A program made the translations under genes and the position numbers. A DNA stretch of 64,000 bases. Source: Eledone cirrhosa. Taxonomy: Eukaryota. Positions 7,137 through 54,915 of the stretch are shown here, piece after piece; position 1 is the first letter of the stretch, and each line of letters begins with the position of its first letter. The notes beneath the pieces were generated by a model that did not search any database, was not told the DNA's origin, and saw only the letters and a list, made by a program, of their open reading frames with translations. The stretch lies in assembly GCA_964016885.1 (NCBI GenBank), contig OZ024742.1:377580001-377644000 (forward strand). The letters run 5' to 3'.

Positions 7137-7224
7137 TCATATTACAATTGTTTCTATATCGATCAGTTCGGGTTTGATCAGGCGATAAGATCCCGACTCT
7201 TAATCGATACTTCTTCAGATATGA
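7137..7224 (-). ncRNA. Type I hammerhead with extended stem II
   Basis: Minus strand: tcatat CTGAAGA ag tatcgatt...tcggg...cccga...gatcgata ta GAAAC aatt GTA atatga; 6-bp stem I, palindromic stem III ACAATTGT. Confidence 0.85.
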
Positions 7225-12370: not shown

Positions 12371-12411
12371 TTGTGTATTATTTGTGTATGTGAAATAGAT
12401 ATGTAAATATG

Positions 12412-13078
12412 TCAGCAGCAACTACAGCGGCAGAAAGTGCAAGAGTAGAAACAGCAGCTGCAGCAGCAACTACAGCGGCAGAAAGTGCAATAGTACAAAC
12501 AGCAGATGCAGCAGCAACTACAGCAGCAGAATGTGCAATAGTAGAAACAGCAGCTGCAGCAGCAACTACAGCGGCAGAAAGTGCAATAGTAGAAACAGCA
12601 GATGCAGCAGCAACTACAGCGGCAGAAAGTGCAAGAGTAGAAACAGCAGATGCAGCAGCAACTACAGCGGCAGAAAGTGCAATAGTAGAAACAGCAGCTG
12701 CAGCAGCAACTACAGCGGCAGAAAGTGCAATAGTAGAAACAGCAGCTGCAGCAGCAACTACAGCGGCAGAAAGTGAAATAGTAGAAACAGCAGCTGCAGC
12801 AGCAACTACAGCGGCAGAAAGTGCAATAGTAGAAACATCAGATGCAGCAGCAACTACAGCGGCAGAAAGTGCAATAGTAGAAACAGCAGCTGCAGCAGCA
12901 ACTACAGCGGCAGAAAGTGCAATAGTAGAAACATCAGATGCAGCAGCAACTACAGCGGCAGAAAGTGCAATAGTAGAAACATCAGATGCAGCAGCAACTA
13001 CAGCGGCAGAAAGTGCAATAGTAGAAACAGCAGCTGCAGCAGCAACTACAGCGGCAGAAAGTGCAATAGTAGAAACAC
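12412..13078. repeat. 48-bp minisatellite, ~14 copies
   Basis: actacagcggcagaaagtgcaatagtagaaacagcagctgcagcagca; period 48 (12421 to 12469). Confidence 0.95.
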
Positions 13079-14308
13079 TAACAGCAGCACCAACAGCAGC
13101 ACCAACAACAGCAGCACCAACAGCAGCAACCCCAACAGCAGCACCACCACAGCAGCACCAACAGCAGCACCAACAACAGCAGCACCACCAACAGCACAAC
13201 CAACAGCAGCAAAACCAACAGCAGCAAAACCACCAACAGCAGCACAACCAACAACAGCACCACCAACAGCAGCACCACCAACAACAGCAGCACCAACAGC
13301 AGCCCCATCAGCAGCACCACCAACAGCAGCACCACCAACAGCAGCAAAACCAACAGCAGCACCACCAACAGCAGCAACACGAACAGCAGCACCAACAGCA
13401 GCACCACCAACAGCAGCACCAACAGCAGCACCAACAACAGCAGCACCAACAGCAACACAACCAACAGCAGCACCAACAACAGCAGCACCAACAGCAGCAC
13501 CAACAGCACCACCAACAGCAGCACCAACAACAGCAGCACCAACAGCAACACAACCAACAGCACCACCAACAACAGCAGCACCAACAGCAGCAGCACCAAC
13601 AGCAACACAACCAACAGCACCACCAACAACAGCAGCACCAACAGCAGCAACACCAACAGCAACACAACCAACAGCAGCACCAACAACAGCACCACCAACA
13701 GCACCACCAACAGCAGCACCAACAGCAGCAACACCAACAGCAACACAACCAACAGCAGCACCAACAGCAGCACCAACAGCAGCACCAACAGCAGCACCAA
13801 CAGCAGCAACACCAACAGCAGCACCAACAACAGCAGCACCAACAGCAGCAACCCCAACAGCAGCACCACCACAGCAGCACCAACAGCAGCACCAACAACA
13901 GCAGCACCACCAACAGCACAACCAACAGCAGCACCACCAACAGCAGCAAAGCCAACAGCAGCACCACCAACAGCACCACCAACAGCAGCACCACCAACAG
14001 CAGCAGCAGCACCACCACCAGCAGCACCACCAACAACAGCAAAACCAACAGCAGCACCACCAACAGCAGCACCACCAACAGCAGCACCAATAACAGCAAA
14101 ACCAACAGCAGCACCACCAACAGCAGCACCACCAACAGCAGCACCAATAACAGCAAAACCAACAGCAGCACCACCAACAGCAGCACCAATAACAGCAAAA
14201 CCAACAGCAGCACCACCAACAGCAGCACCACCAACAGCAGCACCAATAACAGCAGCACCAACAGCAGCAGCACCAACAACAGCACCAACAGCACCAACAA
14301 CAGCAGCA
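13079..14308. repeat. Cryptic CAG/CAA/CAC trinucleotide tract
   Basis: Plus strand almost lacks T; mosaic of CAN triplets. Confidence 0.95.
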
Positions 14309-14380
14309 ATGTGAGCACGTTAGCCATAGCAATGTCTGCTAGGATGTAATCCAATAACTAGGTCTAACATTAATACTATT

Positions 14381-17300
14381 AGTAAAGATGCTACCACTAA
14401 TACCATAGATCTGATGACACAGTCTGCTGAGACATTACTCTAGTAAAGATGCTACCACTAATACCATAGATCTGATGACACAGTCTGCTGAGACATTACT
14501 CTAGTAAAGATGCTACCACTAATACCATAGATCTGATGACACAGTCTGCTAAGACATTACTCTAGTAAAGATGCTACCACTAATACCAGAGATCTGATGA
14601 CACAGTCTGCTAAGACATTACTGTAGTAAAGATGCTACCACTAATACCATAGATCTGATGACACAGTCTGCTAAGACATTACTCTAGTAAAGATGCTACC
14701 ACTAATACCATAGATCTGATGACACAGTCTGCTAAGACATTACTCTAGTAAAGATACTACCACTAATACCATAGATCTGATGACACAGTCTGCTAAGACA
14801 TTACTCTAGTAAAGATGCTACCACTAATACCATAGATCTGATGACACAGTCTGCTAAGACATTACTCTAGTAAAGATGTTACCACTAATACCATAGATCT
14901 GATGACACAGTCTGCTAAGACATTACTCTAGTAAAGATGCTACCACTAATACCATAGATCTGATGACACAGTCTGCTAAGACATTACTGTAGTAAAGATG
15001 CTACCACTAATACCATAGATTTGATGACACAGTCTGCTAAGACATTACTGTAGTAAAGATGTTACCACTAATACCATAGATCTGATGACACAGTCTGCTA
15101 AGACATTACTGTAGTAAAGATGTTACCACTAATACCATAGATCTGATGACACAGTCTGCTAAGACATTACTGTAGTAAAGATGCTACCACTAATACCATA
15201 GATCTGATGACACAGTCTGCTAAGACATTACTGTAGTAAAGATGCTACCACTAATACCATAGATCTGATGACACAGTCTGCTAAGACATTACTGTAGTAA
15301 AGATGTTACCACTAATACCATAGATCTGATGACACAGTCTGCTAAGACATTACTCTAGTAAAGATGCTACGACTAATACCATAGATCTGATGACACAGTC
15401 TGCTAAGACATTACTGTAGTAAAGATGCTACCACTAATACCATAGATCTGATGACACAGTCTGCTAAGACATTACTGTAGTAAAGATGCTACCACTAATA
15501 CCATAGATCTGATGACACTGTCTGCTAAGACATTACTGTAGTAAATATGATACCACTAATACCATAGATCTGATGACACAGTCTGCTAAGACATTACTCT
15601 AGTAAAGATGCTACCACTAATACCATAGATCTGATGACACAGTCTGCTAAGACATTACTCTAGTAAAGATGCTACCACTAATACCATAGATCTGATGACA
15701 CAGTCTGCTAAGACATTACTCTAGTAAAGATGTTACCACTAATACCATAGATCTGATGACACAGTCTGCTAAGACATTACTCTAGTAAATATGATACCAC
15801 TAATACCATAGATCTGATGACACAGTCTGCTAAGACATTACTCTAGTAAAGATGCTACCACTAATACCATAGATCTGATGACACAGTCTGCTAAGACATT
15901 ACTCTAGTAAAGATGTTACCACTAATACCATAGATCTGATGACACAGTCTGCTAAGACATTACTCTAGTAAAGATGCTACCACTAATACCATAGATTTGA
16001 TGACACAGTCTGCTAAGACATTACTCTAGTAAAGATGCTACCACTAATACCATAGATCTGATGACACAGTCTGCTAAGACATTACTCTAGTAAAGATGTT
16101 ACCACTAATACCATAGATCTGATGACACAGTCTGCTAAGACATTACTCTAGTAAAGATGTTACCACTAATACCATAGATCTGATGACACAGTCTGCTAAG
16201 ACATTACTCTAGTAAAGATGCTACCACTAATACCATAGATCTGATGACACAGTCTGCTAAGACATTACTCTAGTAAAGATGTTACCACTAATACCATAGA
16301 TCTGATGACACAGTCTGCTAAGACATTACTCTAGTAAAGATGCTACCACTAATACCATAGATCTGATGACACAGTCTGCTAAGACATTACTCTAGTAAAG
16401 ATGCTACCACTAATACCATAGATCTGATGACACAGTCTGCTAAGACATTACTCTAGTAAAGATGTTACCACTAATACCATAGATCTGATGACACAGTCTG
16501 CTAAGACATTACTCTAGTAAAGATGCTACCACTAATACCATAGATCTGATGACACTGTCTGCTAAGACATTACTCTAGTAAAGATGCTACCACTAATACC
16601 ATAGATCTGATGACACAGTCTGCTAAGACATTACTCTAGTAAAGATGCTACCACTAATACCATAGATCTGATGACACAGTCTGCTAAGACATTACTCTAG
16701 TAAAGATGCTACCACTAATACCATAGATTTGATGACACAGTCTGCTAAGACATTACTCTAGTAAAGATGCTACCACTAATACCATAGATCTGATGACACA
16801 GTCTGCTAAGACATTACTCTAGTAAAGATGCTACCACTAATACCATAGATTTGATGACACAGTCTGCTAAGACATTACTCTAGTAAAGATGCTACCACTA
16901 ATACCATAGATCTGATGACACAGTCTGCTAAGACATTACTCTAGTAAAGATGCTACCACTAATACCATAGATCTGATGACACAGTCTGCTAAGACATTAC
17001 TCTAGTAAAGATGTTACCACTAATACCATAGATTTGATGACACAGTCTGCTAAGACATTACTCTAGTAAAGATGTTACCACTAATACCATAGATTTGATG
17101 ACACAGTCTGCTAAGACATTACTCTAGTAAAGATGCTACCACTAATACCATAGATTTGATGACACAGTCTGCTAAGACATTACTCTAGTAAAGATGCTAC
17201 CACTAATACCATAGATTTGATGACACAGTCTGCTAAGACATTACTCTAGTAAATATGATACCACTAATACCATAGATCTGATGACACAGTCTGCTAAGAC

Positions 17301-20175
17301 ATTACTCTAGTAAAGATGTTACCACTAATACCATAGATCTGATGACACAGTCTGCTAAGACATTACTCTAGTAAATATGATACCACTAATACCATAGATT
17401 TGATGACACAGTCTGCTAAGACATTACTCTAGTAAAGATGCTACCACTAATACCATAGATTTGATGACACAGTCTGCTAAGACATTACTCTAGTAAATAT
17501 GATACCACTAATACCATAGATCTGATGACACAGTCTGCTAAGACATTACTCTAGTAAAGATGTTACCACTAATACCATTGATCTGATGACACAGTCTGCT
17601 AAGACATTACTCTAGTAAAGATGCTACCACTAATACCATAGATCTGATGACACAGTCTGCTAAGACATTACTCTAGTAAAGATGTTACCACTAATACCAT
17701 AGATCTGATGACACAGTCTGCTAAGACATTACTCTAGTAAAGATGCTACCACTAATACCATAGATCTGATGACACAGTCTGCTAAGACATTACTCTAGTA
17801 AAGATGCTACCACTAATACCATAGATTTGATGACACAGTCTGCTAAGACATTACTCTAGTAAAGATGCTACCACTAATACCATAGATTTGATGACACAGT
17901 CTGCTAAGACATTACTCTAGTAAATATGATACCACTAATACCATAGATCTGATGACACAGTCTGCTAAGACATTACTCTAGTAAAGATGTTACCACTAAT
18001 ACCATAGATTTGATGACACAGTCTGCTAAGACATTACTCTAGTAAAGATACTACCACTAATACCAGAGATTTGATGACACAGTCTGCTAAGACATTACTC
18101 TAGTAAAGATGATACCACTAATACCATAGATTTGATGACACAGTCTGCTAAGACATTACTCTAGTAAAGATGCTACCACTAATACCAGAGATTTGATGAC
18201 ACAGTCTGCTAAGACATTACTCTAGTAAAGATGATACCACTAATACCATAGATTTGATGACACAGTCTGCTAAGACATTACTCTAGTAAAGATGCTACCA
18301 CTAATACCATAGATATGATGACACAGTCTGCTAAGACATTACTCTAGTAAAGATGCTACCACTAATACCAGAGATTTGATGACACAGTCTGCTAAGACAT
18401 TACTCTAGTAAAGATGCTACCACTAATACCATAGATTTGATGACACAGTCTGCTGAGACATTACTCTAGTAAATATGATACCACTAATACCATAGATTTG
18501 ATGACACAGTCTGCTAAGACATTACTCTAGTAAAGATGATACCACTAATACCATAGATTTGATGACACAGTCTGCTAAGACATTACTCTAGTAAAGATGA
18601 TACCACTAATACCATAGATCTGATGATACAGTCAGCTAAGACATTACTCTAGTAAAGATGCTAACACTAATACCATAGATTTGATGACACAGTCTGCTAA
18701 GACATTACTGTAGTTAAGATGCTACGACTAATACCATAGATTTGATGACACAGTCTGCTAAGACATTACTCTAGTTAAGATGCTACGACTAATACCATAG
18801 ATTTGATGACACAGTCTGCTAAGACATTACTCTAGTAAAGATGCTACCACTAATACCATAGATTTGATGACACAGTCTGCTAAGACATTACTGTAGTAAA
18901 GATGATACCACTAATACCAGAGATTTGATGACACAGTCTGCTAAGACATTACTCTAGTAAAGATGCTACCACTAATACCATAGATTTGATGACACAGTCT
19001 TCTAAGACAATACTCTAGTAAAGATGCTACCACTAATACCATAGATATGATGACACAGTCTGCTAAGACATTACTCTAGTAAATCTGATACCACTAATAC
19101 CATAGATCTGACGACACAGTCTGCTAAGACATTACTGTAGTAAAGATGTTACCACTAATACCATAGATCTGATGACACAGTCTGCTAAGACATTACTCTA
19201 GTAAATATGCTACCACTAATACCATAGATATGATGACACAGTCTGCTAAGACATTACTCTAGTAAAGATGATACCACTAATACCATAGATTTGATGACAC
19301 AGTCTGCTAAGACATTACTCTAGTAAAGATGATACCACTAATACCATAGATCTGATGACACAGTCTGCTAAGACATTACTCTAGTAAAGGTGATACCACT
19401 AATAGCATAGATTTGATGACACAGTCTGCTAAGACATTACTGTAGTAAAGATGTTACCACTAATACCATAGATCTGATGACACAGTCTGCTAAGACATTA
19501 CTCTAGTAAATATGCTACCACTAATACCATAGATATGATGACACAGTCTGCTAAGACATTACTCTAGTAAAGATGATACCACTAATACCATAGATCTGAT
19601 GACACAGTCTGCTAAGACATTACTCTAGTAAAGGTGATACCACTAATAGCATAGATTTGATGACACAGTCTGCTAAGACATTACTGTAGTAAAGATGTTA
19701 CCACTAATACCATAGATCTGATGACACAGTCTGCTAAGACATTACTCTAGTAAAGATGTTACCACTAATACCATAGATCTGATGACACAGTCTGCTAAGA
19801 CATTACTGTAGTAAAGATGTTACCACTAATACCATAGATCTGATGACACAGTCTGCTAAGACATTACTGTAGTAAAGATGATACCACTAATACCATAGAT
19901 CTGATGACACAGTCTGCTAAGACATTACTCTAGTAAATATGCTACCACTAATACCATAGATATGATGACACAGTCTGCTAAGACATTACTGTAGTAAAGA
20001 TGATACCACCAATACCATAGATTTGATGACACAGTCTGCTAAGACATTACTCTAGTAAATATGCTACCACTAATACCATAGATATGATGACACAGTCTGC
20101 TAAGACATTACTGTAGTAAAGATGATACCACCAATACCATAGATTTGATGACACAGTCTGCTAAGACATTACTCT
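14381..20175. repeat. 61-bp satellite, ~95 copies
   Basis: agtaaagatgctaccactaataccatagatctgatgacacagtctgctaagacattactct; register shifts one base per 60-nt line. Confidence 0.98.
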
Positions 20176-32257: not shown

Positions 32258-32308
32258 AGATTCCTGATGATTTCTAAAGAATGAAACAGTTCTAGTCCTG
32301 TAGAATCT
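32258..32308 (+). ncRNA. PLE pseudo-LTR hammerhead
   Basis: agattc CTGATGA t ttc taaa gaa t GAA ACAG ttctagtc CTGT A gaatct; TATA-like tataaata ~30 nt upstream. Confidence 0.9.
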
Positions 32309-32438
32309 CATCTATATTAAAACTTTTATACTCTGCGATGTATTGACTACCTTACTTACTGTGGTTACCTCCGATTCAATCCGGAATAACGTACCTTTTA
32401 GCAGTCTATGTGCCCCTTATAACCATCATCAAGAAACC

Positions 32439-34583
32439 ATGCTGACCAAACTCGACCTTGATGTTTCCATGAAGAACATCCCTATCCCTCCAAGGAAACT
32501 ATACTTAAAAACACTCATCAGATGTACCGACGAGTTCATCAAGCGAATTAGATGGAGGGCCTTCTTCCTCGACAACCCTGATGTAGCATCTACCAATGAT
32601 GAGAAGTTCGGCTTCAAAACGAATAAGACACCACCCACCAACAGCCTACTCCAACCATTTGAAGAAGACCTCTTCAAGATAATCAAAGATATTAAATTCC
32701 GTAGAGCCACCACACCATTCCAGGCCTACTTAAATGCCGAATTGCGGAATATAAAAAAATCCCCTAATCTTTATGTCTCCTCCGATAAAACCAAAAACGT
32801 TTATGAGGTAGACCCACAGACCTACAATAATCTGACAAAAAATACCATCACGACCACCTACAAAAAGGTAATAGAGATGGCACTGACTGAGACAAACGCG
32901 GCCGGAAAAGAAATCGCCAAGTCCCTTAAACTACACGACCGAACCGAACCTTTAAGGGTAAAGACCCCGCACTTTACCCTGAAGGACCATAAGGGAAACT
33001 TCCTCAACAAACCATCAGTCAGACTTATCAACCCCACTCGTTCTGACATCGGCTCTATCAGTAAGAAGATCCTGGATAGAGTTCTACCATCATTGCGGGC
33101 TGCCTCACCACTTCCACTCTGGAGCAGAACATCTGAGGCAATATCATGGTTCCAAAAATTACCCGACAAACACCACACTCGCTTCCTGCAACTCGACATA
33201 GATAACTACTATGCCTCTATCTCGGAGCCCCTCCTGAAGGACGCAATTAACTTTGCCAGGAATTTTACCACCATTACCGATGCTGAGCAAGTTGTTATCC
33301 TCCACGCTCGTAAGACCTTCCTATACCACGATGGATCTTACTGGATCAACAAGAAATCTCAGACCCCATTTGACGTTAGCATGGGAGCGAGTGACTCGGC
33401 TGAAATTAGCGACCTTGTGGGCCTGTACATCCTACATCACCTGAAGAACCTCTTTACCGGCCTAACGGGAGGTTTATACCGAGACGACGGCCTCTTCGCC
33501 CTGCATAAGGTTAGCCCCAGAACCACCGATGGCTTTCGGAAAAACTTAAGCTCATTCTTCTCTAATCTAGGATTTAGTATAACTATAGAATCTAATTTGA
33601 CTAGGGCCAACTTCTTAGATGTCACCCTCGACCTAGATACTTCCCTCTATTACCCGTACCACAAACCTAACGAGTCCCTTAAATATATTAATGTTAATTC
33701 AAACCACCGCCAAAACATCACTGATAACCTAGTAAAAGGCGTCTCTATGAGAATATCCGGCCTCTCCGCCAACAAAGATATTTTTAACGCATCTGCCTCC
33801 TACTACAATGACGCCCTCGCCCGTAGCGGATTTAAAGGAAAGATAACATACCTAGAAACCACCGCAAGATTGCAGAGGAGGAATAGACATAGGCAGATTA
33901 GCTGGTACAACCCTCCCTTCAATAGAGAGGTCTCTACTCCGATAGCTAGGATTTTCTTCACTTTGCTGAAATTACACTTCCCCATACAACATAGGTACCA
34001 CACCATCTTTAATAAGAACACAATAAGACTCTCCTACTCCACTACACCTAACCTAGCTAGGAATATAGCCAACCACAATTCTAAAAAATTAAATAAGCCA
34101 ACCACCTCTGAACCTAATCCCCGGACTGGGGCTCTGTGTAATTGCCTAAATAAGGAGGCATGCCCACTTGAAAACAAATGCCTCACAAATGATATCGTAT
34201 ACAAATGCGATGTCATCTCAGGCACCGATGATTGCAAAAAAACTTACATCGGCATGACCTCCAACAACTTTAAGACCCGCTGGTATGCCCATACCCACTC
34301 CTTCAGAAGACCGGACAAATCAAACCAGACAACACTCGCCTCCTATGTTTGGGACCTCAAAAGGAACTCCACCCCCTTCACGCTTAAATGGAAAATACTC
34401 CAGAAAGCGCGCTCTTTCAACGGAGGACACAAGGGCTGCGACCTTTGTATTTCAGAGAGCTACGAAATTTTATTCGCCAAGGGCCCGCTACTGAACAAAC
34501 TCTCTGAACACTGCCCGAACTGCATGCACAAGAACTTTGCAACTTTCAAACACTTTAAGCCAGTGTTAAAGCCCGATGGCTAA
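32439..34583 (+). CDS. PLE reverse transcriptase / GIY-YIG endonuclease, intact 714 aa (Naiad-like)
   Basis: First ATG at 32439; [52 protein letters not shown]...YIGMT, CDLC, CMH; clade is inferred from these motifs. Confidence 0.93.
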
Positions 34584-51600: not shown

Positions 51601-51844
51601 GTAGTGGTTATAAACGTTACGCTCGGAATATGTACATATATATATATGTAGATAAATCTACCAAGAGTTTACGGTAGTGTCCAATCCGTATGAAGAACTC
51701 AATGTAATCCGGATATCATGGAAAGAAGAGATGCAATGAAAAATCACTTTCGGTGAAAGATAAACGGAATACAGAGTCAAGATAAAATATTAAAAAAATA
51801 ATGAATAAAACAATGAAACAGTTCCTTATATTAAACAAAAAAAG

Positions 51845-51999
51845 TTCATTATTTAACGATCGTTTCTAGGATATATATGTGTTAGAATTGGCATGCATAT
51901 TCAACAGATCTATGTACAAAATTATACAAAATTATACAAACTATCAAAATTAAATATACATACCAAACACATATATATGCCGTCTTCAGAAATAATGAA
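51845..51999 (-). ncRNA. Hammerhead with ~116-nt stem II region (mirror copy)
   Basis: Reverse complement of 52995-53149. Confidence 0.8.
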
Positions 52000-52994
52000 A
52001 TATATTTATTGATAATAACAACAATTCAAAATTTCAGGTCCGTTTGGGAACAGAGTTCAAATTGACCAATGAAAATACAAAAAATTTTATGCAGTTAGGT
52101 GTGTGTATATACATGTAATTTACTTCGTACACATATTTACATAAAGATATATGTTCACATGCATACGCATGCCAAAAAGATGTATGTAAATACAAAAATT
52201 CAAGGCTAATGTCTCTGTAAGTTTATAATCCACAGATAAAATGCGTATAGACACATAAATATGAAATAAATGTATACACACATTCATATACTCACACATA
52301 TTCGTACACTCACACACACACGCGCGTATATGCATAAACATACACATAACTACGAACATACATACACACACACACCCCCACACACATATATATGTGCATA
52401 TAGCATTATCATAAGCATATGGACATTAATGCACGCACATAAACACTGCCACACATATTTAGATCAGGATGCCGAAACCGTTGAATACTGACCTCTCCCC
52501 CCCCCCTCCCACCTAATTTCTGTATCCTGATCTAAATATGTGTGGCAGTGTTTATGTGCGTGCATTAATGTCCATATGCTTATGATAATGCTATATGCAC
52601 ATATATATGTGTGTGGGGGTGTGTGTGTGTATGTATGTTCGTAGTTATGTGTATGTTTATGCATATACGCGCGTGTGTGTGTGAGTGTACGAATATGTGT
52701 GAGTATATGAATGTGTGTATACATTTATTTCATATTTATGTGTCTATACGCATTTTATCTGTGGATTATAAACTTACAGAGACATTAGCCTTGAATGTTT
52801 GTATTTACATACATCTTTTTGGCATGCGTATGCATGTGAACATATATCTTTATGTAAATATGTGTACGAAGTAAATTACATGTATATACACACACCTAAC
52901 TGCATAAAATTTTTTGTATTTTCATTGGTCAATGTGAACTCTGTTCCCAAACGGACCTGAAATTTTGAATTGTTGTTATTATCAATAAATATAT

Positions 52995-53149
52995 TTCATT
53001 ATTTCTGAAGACGGCATATATATGTGTTTGGTATGTATATTTAATTTTGATAGTTTGTATAATTTTGTATAATTTTGTACATAGATCTGTTGAATATGCA
53101 TGCCAATTCTAACACATATATATCCTAGAAACGATCGTTAAATAATGAA
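52995..53149 (+). ncRNA. Hammerhead with ~116-nt stem II region
   Basis: ttcattattt CTGAAGA cggc atatatatgtgtt...aacacatatatat ccta GAAAC gatc GTT aaataatgaa; perfect 10-bp stem I, palindromic stem III ACGATCGT. Confidence 0.8.
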
Positions 53150-53203
53150 CTTTTTTTGTTTAATATAAGGAACTGTTTCATTGTTTTATTCATTATTTTT
53201 TTA

Positions 53204-53252
<49 letters not shown>

Positions 53253-53360
53253 AATTAACATATCTACCGACATATGTATACCGATGCATACCTATGCTAG
53301 CAGATATATATGTTTTGTCTTAGTAACTTTGTGGTTCTATGCAGGGGAATGCAGAACAAT

Positions 53361-53608
53361 TATATGAAAGACGTAAATAAGAAAGTTATGAAAATTGACT
53401 TACTTACTAAAATTTCACTCCAACTAATTAGTTTCTGTAAGGGGATAAATATAGTTATGCCTGGAAACTTAGCTGAGAATAGACTCCCTGATGACGTAAG
53501 GCTTCTCTATAGTTATTACATAACTATATTTATCCTCTTACAGAAACTAATTAGTTGGAGTGAAATTTTAGTAAGTAAGTCAATTTTCATAACTTTCTTA
53601 TTTACGTC

Positions 53609-53617
<9 letters not shown>
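53361..53617. repeat. Inverted repeat, ~97-bp arms; same repeat family as 24710-24920
   Basis: tatgaaagacgtaaataag...atatagttat / ataactatat...cttatttacgtctttcata. Confidence 0.9.
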
Positions 53618-53645
<28 letters not shown>

Positions 53646-53651
<6 letters not shown>

Positions 53652-54884
53652 GATAAATCTACCAAAATATACGGTAGTGTCCAATCCGTATGAAGAACTC
53701 AATGTAATCCAAATATCATGAAAAGAGAAGATGCATTCAAAAATTTTCGATGAAAATCATAGGAAAACAGAGTTAAGATAAATAAATAAAAACAATGAAT
53801 AAAAACAAAGAACAAGTTCCTTATATTAAATATTAAAAATTCATCATTTATGGTGAATTTTTAATATAAGGAACTTGTTCTTTGTTTTTATTCATTGTTT
53901 TTATTAATTTATCTTAACCCTGTTTTCCTATGATTTTCATCGAAAATTTTTGAATGCATCTTCTCTTTTCATGATATTTGGATTACATTGAGTTCTTCAT
54001 ACGGATTGGACACTACCGTATATTTTGGTAGATTTATCTACATACTTTGCTCCTAATTTTATACAGGTATTCATATTTTAATATATACTTTTTATATACA
54101 TAATTTTATAACTCCCTATATATATAGTTGAGCTCTCTTTCTTGTCCATTATCCATATTACAATGGAAAAACAATACTTGGGAACTTCTTTAAAGAATAT
54201 ACCGATACCTTCTAAGGATGAATTCTTACTTCTTATGATATACAAAAAAACAACCAATTCATCAAAAGGGTCAGATGGAGGGCCTACCACTTTGATAGAA
54301 AAACAAAACATATTGATAAGAAATATTTATATCATTTCACTACATATAAGAACCCACCACACAACTCCTTGCTTGAAAACTTCGAGAAAGACCTATTTAA
54401 CTTAATCAAACACCTCAGATTTAAGAAATATAAATCTAATTTTCAAAAAGATCTTGACTCTACCCTATTGGTTCTAAAAAATCTAGCAAAGTTCACGTCC
54501 ACTCTGACAAAACTGGAAATCTATACCACATGAATATTGATAATTACAATGACTTCATTTATAAAGAACGCAGGAAAAATTATTAAAAAAACAAATAATG
54601 CGGCTCTTACCAATATCAACAACAAAACATACAACATAGTAAATAAACTCAATATTGAAGACAGAACTGAACCTTTGGCACTGAAGAAACAACACTTTAA
54701 CCTGAAAGATCACAAACCTAACTTTAACTCTAATCCTTCTATAAGACTTATATGCCCTTCCAAGTCTGACATTGGCATCATTAGTAACATTTTTTTAGAT
54801 AGAATCATCCCACAATTAAGAATAAAATGATGACTTTTTTAATATAAGGAACTTGTTCTTTGTTTTTATTCATTGTTTTTATTA

Positions 54885-54885
<1 letters not shown>
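53646..54885 (+). mobile_element. Degenerate Naiad-like PLE with inverted 5' duplication and internal deletion
   Basis: Inverted repeat 53646-54044; broken ORF from 54163; short pseudo-LTR remnant 54835-54885 before (TA)n. Confidence 0.75.
54163..54830 (+). pseudogene. PLE ORF N-terminal part, frameshifted
   Basis: SLKNIPIP...FIKRVRWRA...SDKTGNLY...LKDHKPNF..NPSIRLICPSKSDIG, homologous to the 32439 ORF. Confidence 0.85.

Positions 54886-54915
<30 letters not shown>

What the first reader, a model, noticed from the sequence alone, without database searches (positions are those of the whole stretch)
52995..53149. Hammerhead with ~116 nt between CUGAAGA and GAAA
Seen: perfect 10-bp stem I, palindromic stem III, a GUU site and a 13-bp helix (atatatatgtgtt/aacacatatatat) closing a large insert. 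Downstream sequence matches the leader of the PLE at 53853-54163, placing the motif in a pseudo-LTR. Inference: an expanded-stem-II class (also 7137, 27144, 30823) that length-limited descriptors would miss; the insert may be an extra domain.
Basis: partly seen in the sequence, partly recalled or inferred. Interest (0 to 1): 0.7.

Follow-up and report, generated by a model that had tools for sequence, protein, structure and literature searches.

The report
Long-armed hammerhead of Hydra retrotransposon
This is a hammerhead (predicted self-cutting RNA) motif at the end of a young, multi-thousand-copy Penelope-type jumping gene; its middle arm is stretched into a 116-base rod that is conserved across four related families, and the element's RNA likely starts inside the motif and is likely copied uncut.

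Summary
The motif sits in the terminal repeat of a young, autonomous Hydra-type Penelope-like element: 4,925 exact copies of its 3' core, and one relative with an intact 813-aa ORF and a 4.2-kb 3' UTR. The long stem II is family-wide (72 of 75 copies have 115-116 nt) and folds as an unbranched rod. Three sister families carry mostly 95-103-nt homologues with compensatory changes, an invariant tip and, in one family, the U3-A8 core swap. The 26 published Hydra hammerhead rows have 26 nt or less, and Rfam misses the motif. Copies do not start at the cut site (0 of 30). They pile up 7 nt before CUGAAGA (35 of 88 within 12 nt), often with an extra G, which likely marks a capped start inside stem I. 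A tail hairpin is predicted to lock the motif off. One sequencing run shows strand-specific A>G changes in the rod and core. Cleavage is untested and the rod's role is inferred. This scan has already noted long-armed Hydra hammerheads and cap-bounded copies on other DNA. Verdict: new variant of a known kind.

The parts
52995..53004 (+). Stem I, 5' strand (10 nt)
   Evidence: compensatory changes across families
52998..52998 (+). Modal 5' end of genomic copies (7 nt before C3); inferred capped transcription start
   Evidence: 35 of 88 at -10..+1, mode -7; extra G
52984..52989 (+). AATAAA, at about this place in all four families; possible polyadenylation signal (inferred)
53005..53011 (+). Hammerhead core CUGAAGA (C3-A9); U3-A8 variant in sister family R
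53012..53127 (+). 116-nt stem II rod: C.A, 2 bp, C x C, 13 bp, 5-nt 3' bulge, 17 bp, then tip
   Evidence: (insert z = -8.2)
53048..53087 (+). Tip with sequence conserved across four families (UGAUA..UUGUA / loop of variable length / UACAUAGAUC); holds an 11-nt duplication in this family
53128..53139 (+). GAAA, palindromic stem III (ACGAUCGU), GUU; predicted cut after 53139
   Evidence: 8-bp intermolecular duplex, -10.0 kcal/mol
53140..53149 (+). Stem I, 3' strand; predicted to pair alternatively with the tail
53150..53212 (+). Tail up to the short 3' end of insertions; holds UUCAUUGUUU (53177-53186) and UUCAUUAUUU (53189-53198), complementary to the 3' strand of stem I
53213..53250 (+). (TA)n target at the short end
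52470..53212 (+). Right arm: 5'-truncated 3' end of the element (3' UTR remnant, hammerhead, tail)
   Evidence: 88% to L252
51645..52477 (-). Left arm: inverted copy with a second identical hammerhead (51845-51999), running to the long 3' end 210 nt after the cut site, then (TA)n
53646..54890 (+). Neighbouring decayed copy of sister family P (inverted leader, leader, broken Hydra-type ORF from 54163, tail); not the motif's own parent

Best explanation
This is a type I hammerhead motif in the terminal repeat of a young, autonomous Hydra-type Penelope-like retrotransposon, with stem II predicted to fold as a 116-nt rod whose pairing is conserved across four families, and it likely works as a switchable, mostly switched-off ribozyme at the front of the element's RNA. 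Shown: family, copy number, anatomy, covariation, where copies begin and end. Inferred steps: (1) the RNA is capped and starts 7 nt before the core, inside stem I, so the 5' copy has only 7 bp of stem I; (2) the tail pairs with the 3' strand of stem I and holds the motif off, so the template stays uncut; (3) the element's reverse transcriptase primes at (TA)n targets from two internal sites, about 73 and 210 nt after the cut site, and copies through the motif to the cap; stopping there leaves about 215-nt or 350-nt copies, often two head to head, while going on gives longer copies; (4) cleavage would occur only transiently, in a downstream copy with full stem I and as a dimer through the palindromic stem III, probably with protein help; (5) the rod is a tolerated extension of stem II, and its invariant tip is most likely a binding site for the element's protein.
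For: Element: L252 holds hammerhead, intact 813-aa ORF, 4.2-kb 3' UTR and hammerhead; RWR, DKT, CxCx5C and YIG motifs as in PMC8557442 section 11. Copy number: 4,925 exact matches, control 0. Rod length: 72 of 75 copies with both core halves have 115-116 nt. Selection on structure: 97.4% of 895 cells paired in 36 sequences; 8 of 25 pairs change on both sides; slid controls 27-51% paired; U3-A8 core swap in family R, a variant described in PMC4209133. 5' ends: 35 of 88 at -10..+1, mode -7; 35 of the 60 resolvable ones. Cut site: 0 of 30 tail-bearing copies begin there. Extra G: 19 G against 4 A in 65 (TA)n-flanked junctions, background 33 G to 377 A; by my count 41 of 52 listed perfect head-to-head junctions have a central G/C. 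An extra G as a cap mark is stated in PMC11702581. Two 3' ends: 34 short and 34 long ends directly at (TA)n, of 88. Switch: P(stem I) = 0.00 in 8 of 8 representatives folded from -7 with the tail; 0.87-1.00 with full stem I before the tail is made. Precedent: an uncut template, internal priming at two sites and protein-assisted cleavage in PAc (PMC11167929).
Against: No cleavage data. The base of stem II is C.A, not the G10.1-C11.1 pair that PMC4209133 calls highly conserved. U17 can pair with A14, and the hammerhead fold lies 3.4 kcal/mol above the minimum. At equilibrium the tail hairpin also beats full stem I in 6 of 8 representatives at tail+75, so the motif may rarely be on at all. The tail complement is only modestly unusual: 10 of 10 pairs in 1.7-10.6% of shuffles, duplex energy reached in 1.2-5.7%. 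The tip helices never vary, so covariation says nothing about them. The number of pairs changed on both sides (8) is reached by 52 of 500 shuffles, and the sequences are only four related families. The G excess is not significant against the smallest matched background (4 G, 3 A, p = 0.31), and in a mixed set of 42 edge junctions G was only 11. In family R stem I still forms from -7 before the tail is made (0.97-0.98). Pfam finds no RT or GIY-YIG domain, and no tree was built.
Confidence: 0.62

Rival explanations
1. The conserved tip is a DNA-level internal promoter element about 50-90 nt after the start. The RNA folds it into a rod only so that the hammerhead core still comes together.
For: D. 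virilis Penelope has an internal TATA-less promoter (PMC2377424). The tip is conserved in sequence while the flanking helices are replaced. TGATAG/TGATAA resembles a GATA-factor site (recalled, no call).
Against: The two halves UGUA and UACA stay complementary while the spacer between them varies from 4 nt (R) to about 20 nt (N), which fits a hairpin better than a linear site. Family Q has TGATAT.
Confidence: 0.2
2. The pile-up of 5' ends marks a polyadenylation cut of read-through RNA, or an exonuclease or reverse-transcriptase stop at the structure, not a capped start.
For: AATAAA stands about 21 nt before the core in N, P and Q and at a similar place in R, which would put a cut near -7. C, the templated base at -8, is the commonest letter at (TA)n junctions (42 of 65).
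Against: An uncapped end does not explain 19 G against 4 A. C is also the commonest background letter there (995 of 1,405). Only 4 of 107 hammerheads in the random sample have such a hexamer, against 48 of 729 control windows.
Confidence: 0.2
3. The rod is a neutral expansion. Any hairpin is tolerated in stem II, the motif is a weak or vestigial cutter, and the tip's conservation reflects recent common descent.
For: Stem II length varies continuously from 12 to 116 nt among unrelated families. A second, unrelated family has a branched 96-104-nt insert. One P copy keeps both core halves with a 79-nt insert. The rod is rich in AU/GU repeats. Hammerhead mutants did not affect PAc insertion in vitro.
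Against: The proximal helix has been wholly replaced in Q and R while the tip and length (about 100 nt) are kept. The core shows a compensatory U3-A8 swap in R.
Confidence: 0.25
4. Chance motif in AT-rich, microsatellite-rich DNA.
For: The 13-bp helix is partly (AT)n, which is self-complementary.
Against: 107 hits against 0-1 in shuffles; z = -7; covariation in non-repetitive Q and R stems; fixed place in element ends.
Confidence: 0.01

Closest known systems
Hammerheads of Hydra-clade Penelope-like elements (Craig et al. 2021, PMC8557442; seen: passages, section 11, rows of supplementary Files S1 and S2)
   Same: Type I, near the element's 3' end; (TA)n targets; short stem III; a mismatch at the base of stem II (U.U in many Hydra rows, C.A in PLE-X1_cBra) and a U at the cut site are common there.
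   Different: All 26 Hydra rows seen have 26 nt or less between the core halves, and the longest row in File S2 has about 54 nt; here 115-116 nt. Described elements are under 3 kb; this unit is about 7.1 kb because of a 4.2-kb 3' UTR.
[quoted passage not shown]
   Same: Palindromic stem III for dimer action; U3-A8 variant; thousands of dispersed single motifs; opposite-strand pairs 100-700 bp apart; low activity in vitro.
   Different: Their 'larger than usual' helix II is 7-8 bp with G10.1-C11.1; here about 45 bp with a C.A base. Stem I is 10-14 bp, not 4-5 bp.
PAc Poseidon element of Anolis (Frangieh et al. 2024, PMC11167929; seen: passages and part 2 of section 3)
   Same: Two internal priming sites that define the 'tail'; uncut RNA as template; AT-rich target; hammerhead needs the protein.
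   Different: PAc's ORF starts inside stem II and its tail is 30-40 bp. Here the ORF starts about 440 nt after the core (L252) and the two ends are about 137 nt apart.
Adineta Penelope elements with inverted pLTRs (Arkhipova et al. 2013, PMC3846280; seen: passages)
   Same: Head-to-head inverted repeats with palindromes at the junction; long spacers before the 3' pLTR.
   Different: That paper explains the palindromes by self-priming on an antisense template; the passages seen do not tie the junction to a cap or to a hammerhead.
Discontinuous Clec2 hammerhead of mammals (Martick et al. 2008; seen: title in a reference list; details recalled)
   Same: A hammerhead core interrupted by a long insertion.
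   Different: Recalled as a type III ribozyme in a host mRNA with an unstructured insertion; not a retroelement motif with a conserved rod.

Membership tests
Type I hammerhead ribozyme | CUGANGA and GAAA boxes with NUH, ends closing in stem I | tested here: met
Type I hammerhead ribozyme | Stems I and II supported by compensatory change | tested here: met
   3 of 9 stem I pairs and 5 of 7 tested stem II pairs change on both sides; four related families only
Type I hammerhead ribozyme | G10.1-C11.1 pair closing stem II | tested here: not met
   C.A in all four families; mismatches here are common in listed PLE hammerheads
Type I hammerhead ribozyme | Match to an Rfam hammerhead model | tested here: not met
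   0 matches at E <= 10 in 52900-53260
Type I hammerhead ribozyme | Self-cleavage after N17 | not testable with these tools
   No raw RNA reads available; genomic copies run through the site
Type I hammerhead ribozyme | Tertiary contact between stems I and II | not tested
   A C x C mismatch at pair 4 is widespread, role unknown
Dimer-type PLE hammerhead | Short palindromic stem III | tested here: met
   ACGAUCGU, duplex -10.0 kcal/mol
Dimer-type PLE hammerhead | Location in pLTRs flanking an RT-endonuclease ORF | tested here: met
   L252, L031, L043
Hydra clade of Penelope-like elements | N-terminal RWK-like motif, DKT in place of DKG, CxCx5C linker, C-terminal GIY-YIG | tested here: met
   RWR 36, DKT 114, CNCRNKANC 672, YIG 706 (0-based) in the L252 ORF; by motif only, Pfam silent
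Hydra clade of Penelope-like elements | Insertion into (TA)n | tested here: met
   68 of 88 copies end directly at (TA)n
Hydra clade of Penelope-like elements | Short element, generally under 3 kb | tested here: not met
   unit about 7.1 kb; descriptive rather than strict in PMC8557442
Hydra clade of Penelope-like elements | Placement in the Hydra clade on an RT tree; CCHH motif absent | not tested
   no tree or alignment with the published Hydra proteins was made
Non-LTR retrozyme (tandem 150-400-nt repeats; size range recalled) | Head-to-tail tandem units without an ORF | tested here: not met
   copies are dispersed or head to head and belong to an ORF-bearing element

The most novel reading that the evidence does not exclude
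The long-armed hammerhead is the control centre of this retrotransposon. The capped RNA begins inside stem I. A tail hairpin that also serves as the priming site switches the ribozyme off. The conserved tip of the 100-116-nt rod binds the element's protein. Host A-to-I editing rewrites the rod and the core (A11.1 opposite C10.1, and A15.1), so a host editing enzyme tunes a ribozyme. Stem II lengthened independently several times in this lineage, leaving tens of thousands of hammerheads that standard searches cannot see.
Probability: 0.22. Interest if true: 0.8.

Novelty: new variant of a known kind. Interest (0 to 1): 0.48.

Why it matters
What PLE hammerheads do, and how pseudo-LTRs and inverted copies form, are open questions (PMC8557442, PMC11167929). 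Here a young family with an intact ORF fixes the likely RNA start, both priming sites and an on/off switch to within a few bases, so each can be tested with short constructs. The survey also suggests that descriptor-based counts miss many motifs: 9 per Mb with more than 90 nt in stem II, or roughly 27,000 genome-wide (Poisson range about 12,000-51,000, extrapolated by hand). If the A>G signal is editing, it would be a case of a host enzyme editing a ribozyme core. On its own, the long arm is a structural variant of a known motif.

Tried and rejected
(1) 'Palindromic non-autonomous element': my first reading from 30 top hits. Rejected once unbiased copies ran further upstream into a long 3' UTR and a Hydra-type ORF. 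(2) Template jumps to a SINE RNA: 276 exact SINE-hammerhead junctions. Rejected: in the six loci examined the SINE sits inside the hammerhead's 5' end, five with a duplicated target, and a rough chance estimate is 278 (it counts all SINE variants, the search only one). (3) A poly(A) tail at the -7 junction: the one A-run (L282) is slippage in an inverted U-run. (4) A polyadenylation signal as a general feature of these hammerheads: 4 of 107. (5) Cap G from the mixed junction set: 11 of 42, inconclusive; the (TA)n-anchored search was the cleaner test. (6) RNAalifold on the MAFFT alignment recovered stem I and the tip but not the proximal rod, because the families are out of register there. The first pair count used a mis-registered structure and is void; it was redone. 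(7) Rfam: only microsatellite-driven miRNA hits among the 150 of 215 rows shown for the window, none at the motif. Pfam: nothing. (8) A DNA search with 53005-53212 returned nothing because its words are too common. (9) Expression: no RNA holder listed; contig depth was not used to infer starts, ends or levels. Runs X5 and X6 (other organisms) gave few contigs and no cross-species variants. (10) Luense et al. 2017 (PMC5785218) is not held, so its variants were not checked. (11) A bug shifted some offsets; they were corrected.

Full report
Observation. The 155-nt region folds at -46.5 kcal/mol, z = -7.0, with 0 of 200 shuffles as stable. The 116 nt between CUGAAGA and GAAA form one unbranched rod: a C.A mismatch, G.U and G-C pairs, a C x C mismatch, 13 bp, a 5-nt bulge, 17 bp, a 3-bp helix between internal loops, and an apical hairpin (insert alone z = -8.2). 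An identical motif lies on the minus strand at 51845-51999, in an inverted repeat spanning 51782-53212 at 97% identity. Rfam gives no match at E <= 10.

The element. The genome is 3.0 Gb. A 28-nt pattern across the 3' core has 4,925 exact matches and a 29-nt tail pattern has 7,527, with controls 0. I examined the first 88 of the 4,925, taken in order along contig C1. Locus L252 shows the whole unit: hammerhead, intact 813-aa ORF, about 4.2 kb of microsatellite-rich 3' UTR, hammerhead. The protein has RWR, DKT, CxCx5C and a C-terminal YIG, the marks given for the Hydra clade in section 11 of PMC8557442. Pfam does not recognise it and I built no tree, so the clade call rests on motifs. The window holds a 5'-truncated 3' end (52470-53212) and an inverted copy (51645-52477), each ending at (TA)n, 87-89% identical to L252.

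Is the long arm the norm, and is it selected? Of the 88 copies, 75 retain both core halves, and 72 of these have 115 or 116 nt. Family P, found around 20 of the top hits to the neighbouring ORF, carries the motif before and after its ORF with mostly 95-102 nt and GUA. A 1-Mb sample of 100 evenly spaced 10-kb stretches gave 107 relaxed type-I motifs against 0-1 in five shuffles. Insert lengths were 52 at up to 20 nt, 36 at 21-40, 6 at 41-60, 3 at 61-90, 9 at 91-130 and 1 at 291. The sample revealed families Q (103 nt, 1,364 first-look candidates) and R (103 nt, 1,456 candidates), both found downstream of Hydra-type endonuclease sequence in some loci. In Q and R the proximal helix has a different sequence but stays paired. 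R has the core UUGAAAA, the U3-A8 swap described in PMC4209133. On 36 sequences picked by hand (5 N, 17 P, 9 Q, 5 R; 32 of them from the 61 distinct motifs, plus 4 more R copies), 97.4% of 895 cells pair and 8 of 25 pairs change on both sides. Slid controls give 27-51% paired. Shuffles reach the paired fraction 0 of 500 times but the pair count 52 of 500 times. These are four related families, not 36 independent events. The tip (UGAUA..UUGUA / loop / UACAUAGAUC) is almost invariant in sequence with a loop of variable length; its pairs never covary, so its structure is predicted only.

Other long arms. The motifs at 7137, 27144 and 30823 have 57, 47 and 47 nt and no BLAST similarity to this rod. 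A further unrelated family has a branched 96-104-nt insert. Long stem II is therefore a recurring trend, not one class.

Where copies begin and end. After correcting an offset bug, 35 of 88 copies begin between -10 and +1 of C3 (mode -7, 14 copies). Six more map at -20 to -11, several by AT-rich over-extension; 10 begin inside the motif and 37 further upstream. Grouped into 51 insertion events, 26 contain such an edge start. Of 16 close head-to-head pairs, 13 have both arms starting at this edge, and each of the 16 has one short and one long arm. The pattern behind this set excludes copies that start at the cut site, so I tested that separately: 0 of the first 30 tail-bearing copies begin there. 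At (TA)n-flanked junctions the base before the -7 start is C in 42, G in 19 and A in 4 of 65 (T was excluded as a continuation of the repeat). The background is C 995, A 377, G 33 (G against A, p = 7e-16). Narrower backgrounds give p = 1.5e-4 and p = 0.31, the last on very few sites. An extra G at full-length 5' junctions is read as a cap mark for L1 (PMC11702581, one passage), and D. virilis Penelope has an internal promoter (PMC2377424, passages). At the 3' side, 34 copies stop at a short end and 34 at a long end directly at (TA)n, of 88, matching the two internal priming sites shown for PAc (PMC11167929).

A predicted switch. All four families carry UUCAUUGUUU in the tail, complementary to the 3' strand of stem I; a 10-of-10 window is present in 74 of 106 distinct tails. 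Folded from -7 with the tail, stem I has probability 0.00 in 8 of 8 representatives. With full stem I and no tail it is 0.87-1.00. With full stem I and 75 nt of tail the hairpin still wins in 6 of 8. Shuffled tails reach 10 of 10 pairs in 1.7-10.6% of cases, so the support is moderate. The palindrome ACGAUCGU gives an 8-bp dimer helix of -10.0 kcal/mol, and the monomer hammerhead fold lies 3.4 kcal/mol above the minimum.

Possible editing. Contigs of run X4 (kind not on record, 88 Mb) show A>G at 53044, 53106, 53118, 53120, 53127 and 53131 in 4-41% of summed depth. Run X2 of the same organism shows 0.01% or less at these sites, and no T>C site is specific to X4 (X1 agrees for the five of these sites listed). 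This is the pattern of A-to-I editing of the sense strand. Position 53127 is the A opposite C10.1 and 53131 is A15.1. X4 is a different sample, its kind is unknown and these are contigs, so this is a lead, not proof.

Mechanism and rivals. The most likely reading is given in Best explanation. The rivals are an internal promoter in the tip, an uncapped processing end at -7, and neutral expansion. My confidence is about 0.93 that this is a selected hammerhead motif of a PLE terminal repeat, about 0.7 for a capped start, about 0.65 for cleavage in some context and about 0.4 for the tip as a protein site.

Comparison and novelty. The 26 Hydra rows of File S2 in PMC8557442 have 26 nt or less between the core halves; the C.A or U.U base and the GUU site have precedent there. 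My searches found no paper on such long stem II arms in retroelement hammerheads, none linking Penelope to strong-stop DNA and none on editing of cephalopod ribozymes (listings only). The library lacks most subscription papers, including Luense et al. 2017, which may bear on this. PMC6765202 was seen as passages and the bioRxiv retrozyme paper as part 1 of 5 (its supplements are closed). Earlier notes of this scan report long-armed Hydra hammerheads in this and other genomes and cap-bounded copies in other PLE clades. I reached both readings before seeing them; they are not independent support. The added points here are the four-family covariation with an invariant tip, the start inside stem I, the tail switch and the A>G signal. 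Verdict: real, a new variant of a known kind, interest 0.48.

Noticed in passing
window 32264-34580 (+): Intact Hydra-type ORF (759 open codons) preceded by a compact hammerhead with a 12-nt stem II and a long stem III. 62 scored genome matches, most 94-97% identical, many without stops; 93,364 first-look candidates.
   Followed up: partly
random sample L051-L150; window 24344, 25612, 56384: Among 54 hammerheads with inserts of 24 nt or more, 41 have a mismatch at the 4th pair of stem II, 30 of them C x C, across unrelated families (my tally). It may be a conserved tertiary or protein contact.
   Followed up: partly
L092 (minus, core 8566) and L140 (minus, core 6745): An unrelated hammerhead family with a branched 96-104-nt stem II insert and different stem III sequences.
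   Followed up: partly
window 53044-53131, run X4: Strand-specific A>G differences at six sites, including A11.1 and A15.1, nearly absent from runs X1 and X2; possible A-to-I editing, run kind unknown.
   Followed up: partly
L306-L311 and 276 genome sites: An abundant SINE-like repeat (55 ends per Mb) inserted at the 5' end of the hammerhead in sister families, mostly with a duplicated target; number near chance.
   Followed up: yes
L252:3884-8030: The family's 3' UTR is about 4.2 kb of internally repeated, microsatellite-like sequence that is carried along in copies.
   Followed up: no
window 14380-20175: 61-bp tandem satellite (about 95 units, 96% alike); most units hold CTGATGA but no matching hammerhead was found; it follows a repetitive 651-codon open frame at 12394-14346.
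   Followed up: no
window 53361-53617 (core at 53488): Another palindromic insertion with a hammerhead-like motif: 48-nt stem II, C.A base, palindromic stem III, GUU; a relative at L068 has 52 nt.
   Followed up: partly
L071, L076, L140, L145 and 7 other loci: 12 head-to-head hammerhead pairs of other families have centres 6-181 nt before the core, so each family may have its own start site.
   Followed up: no
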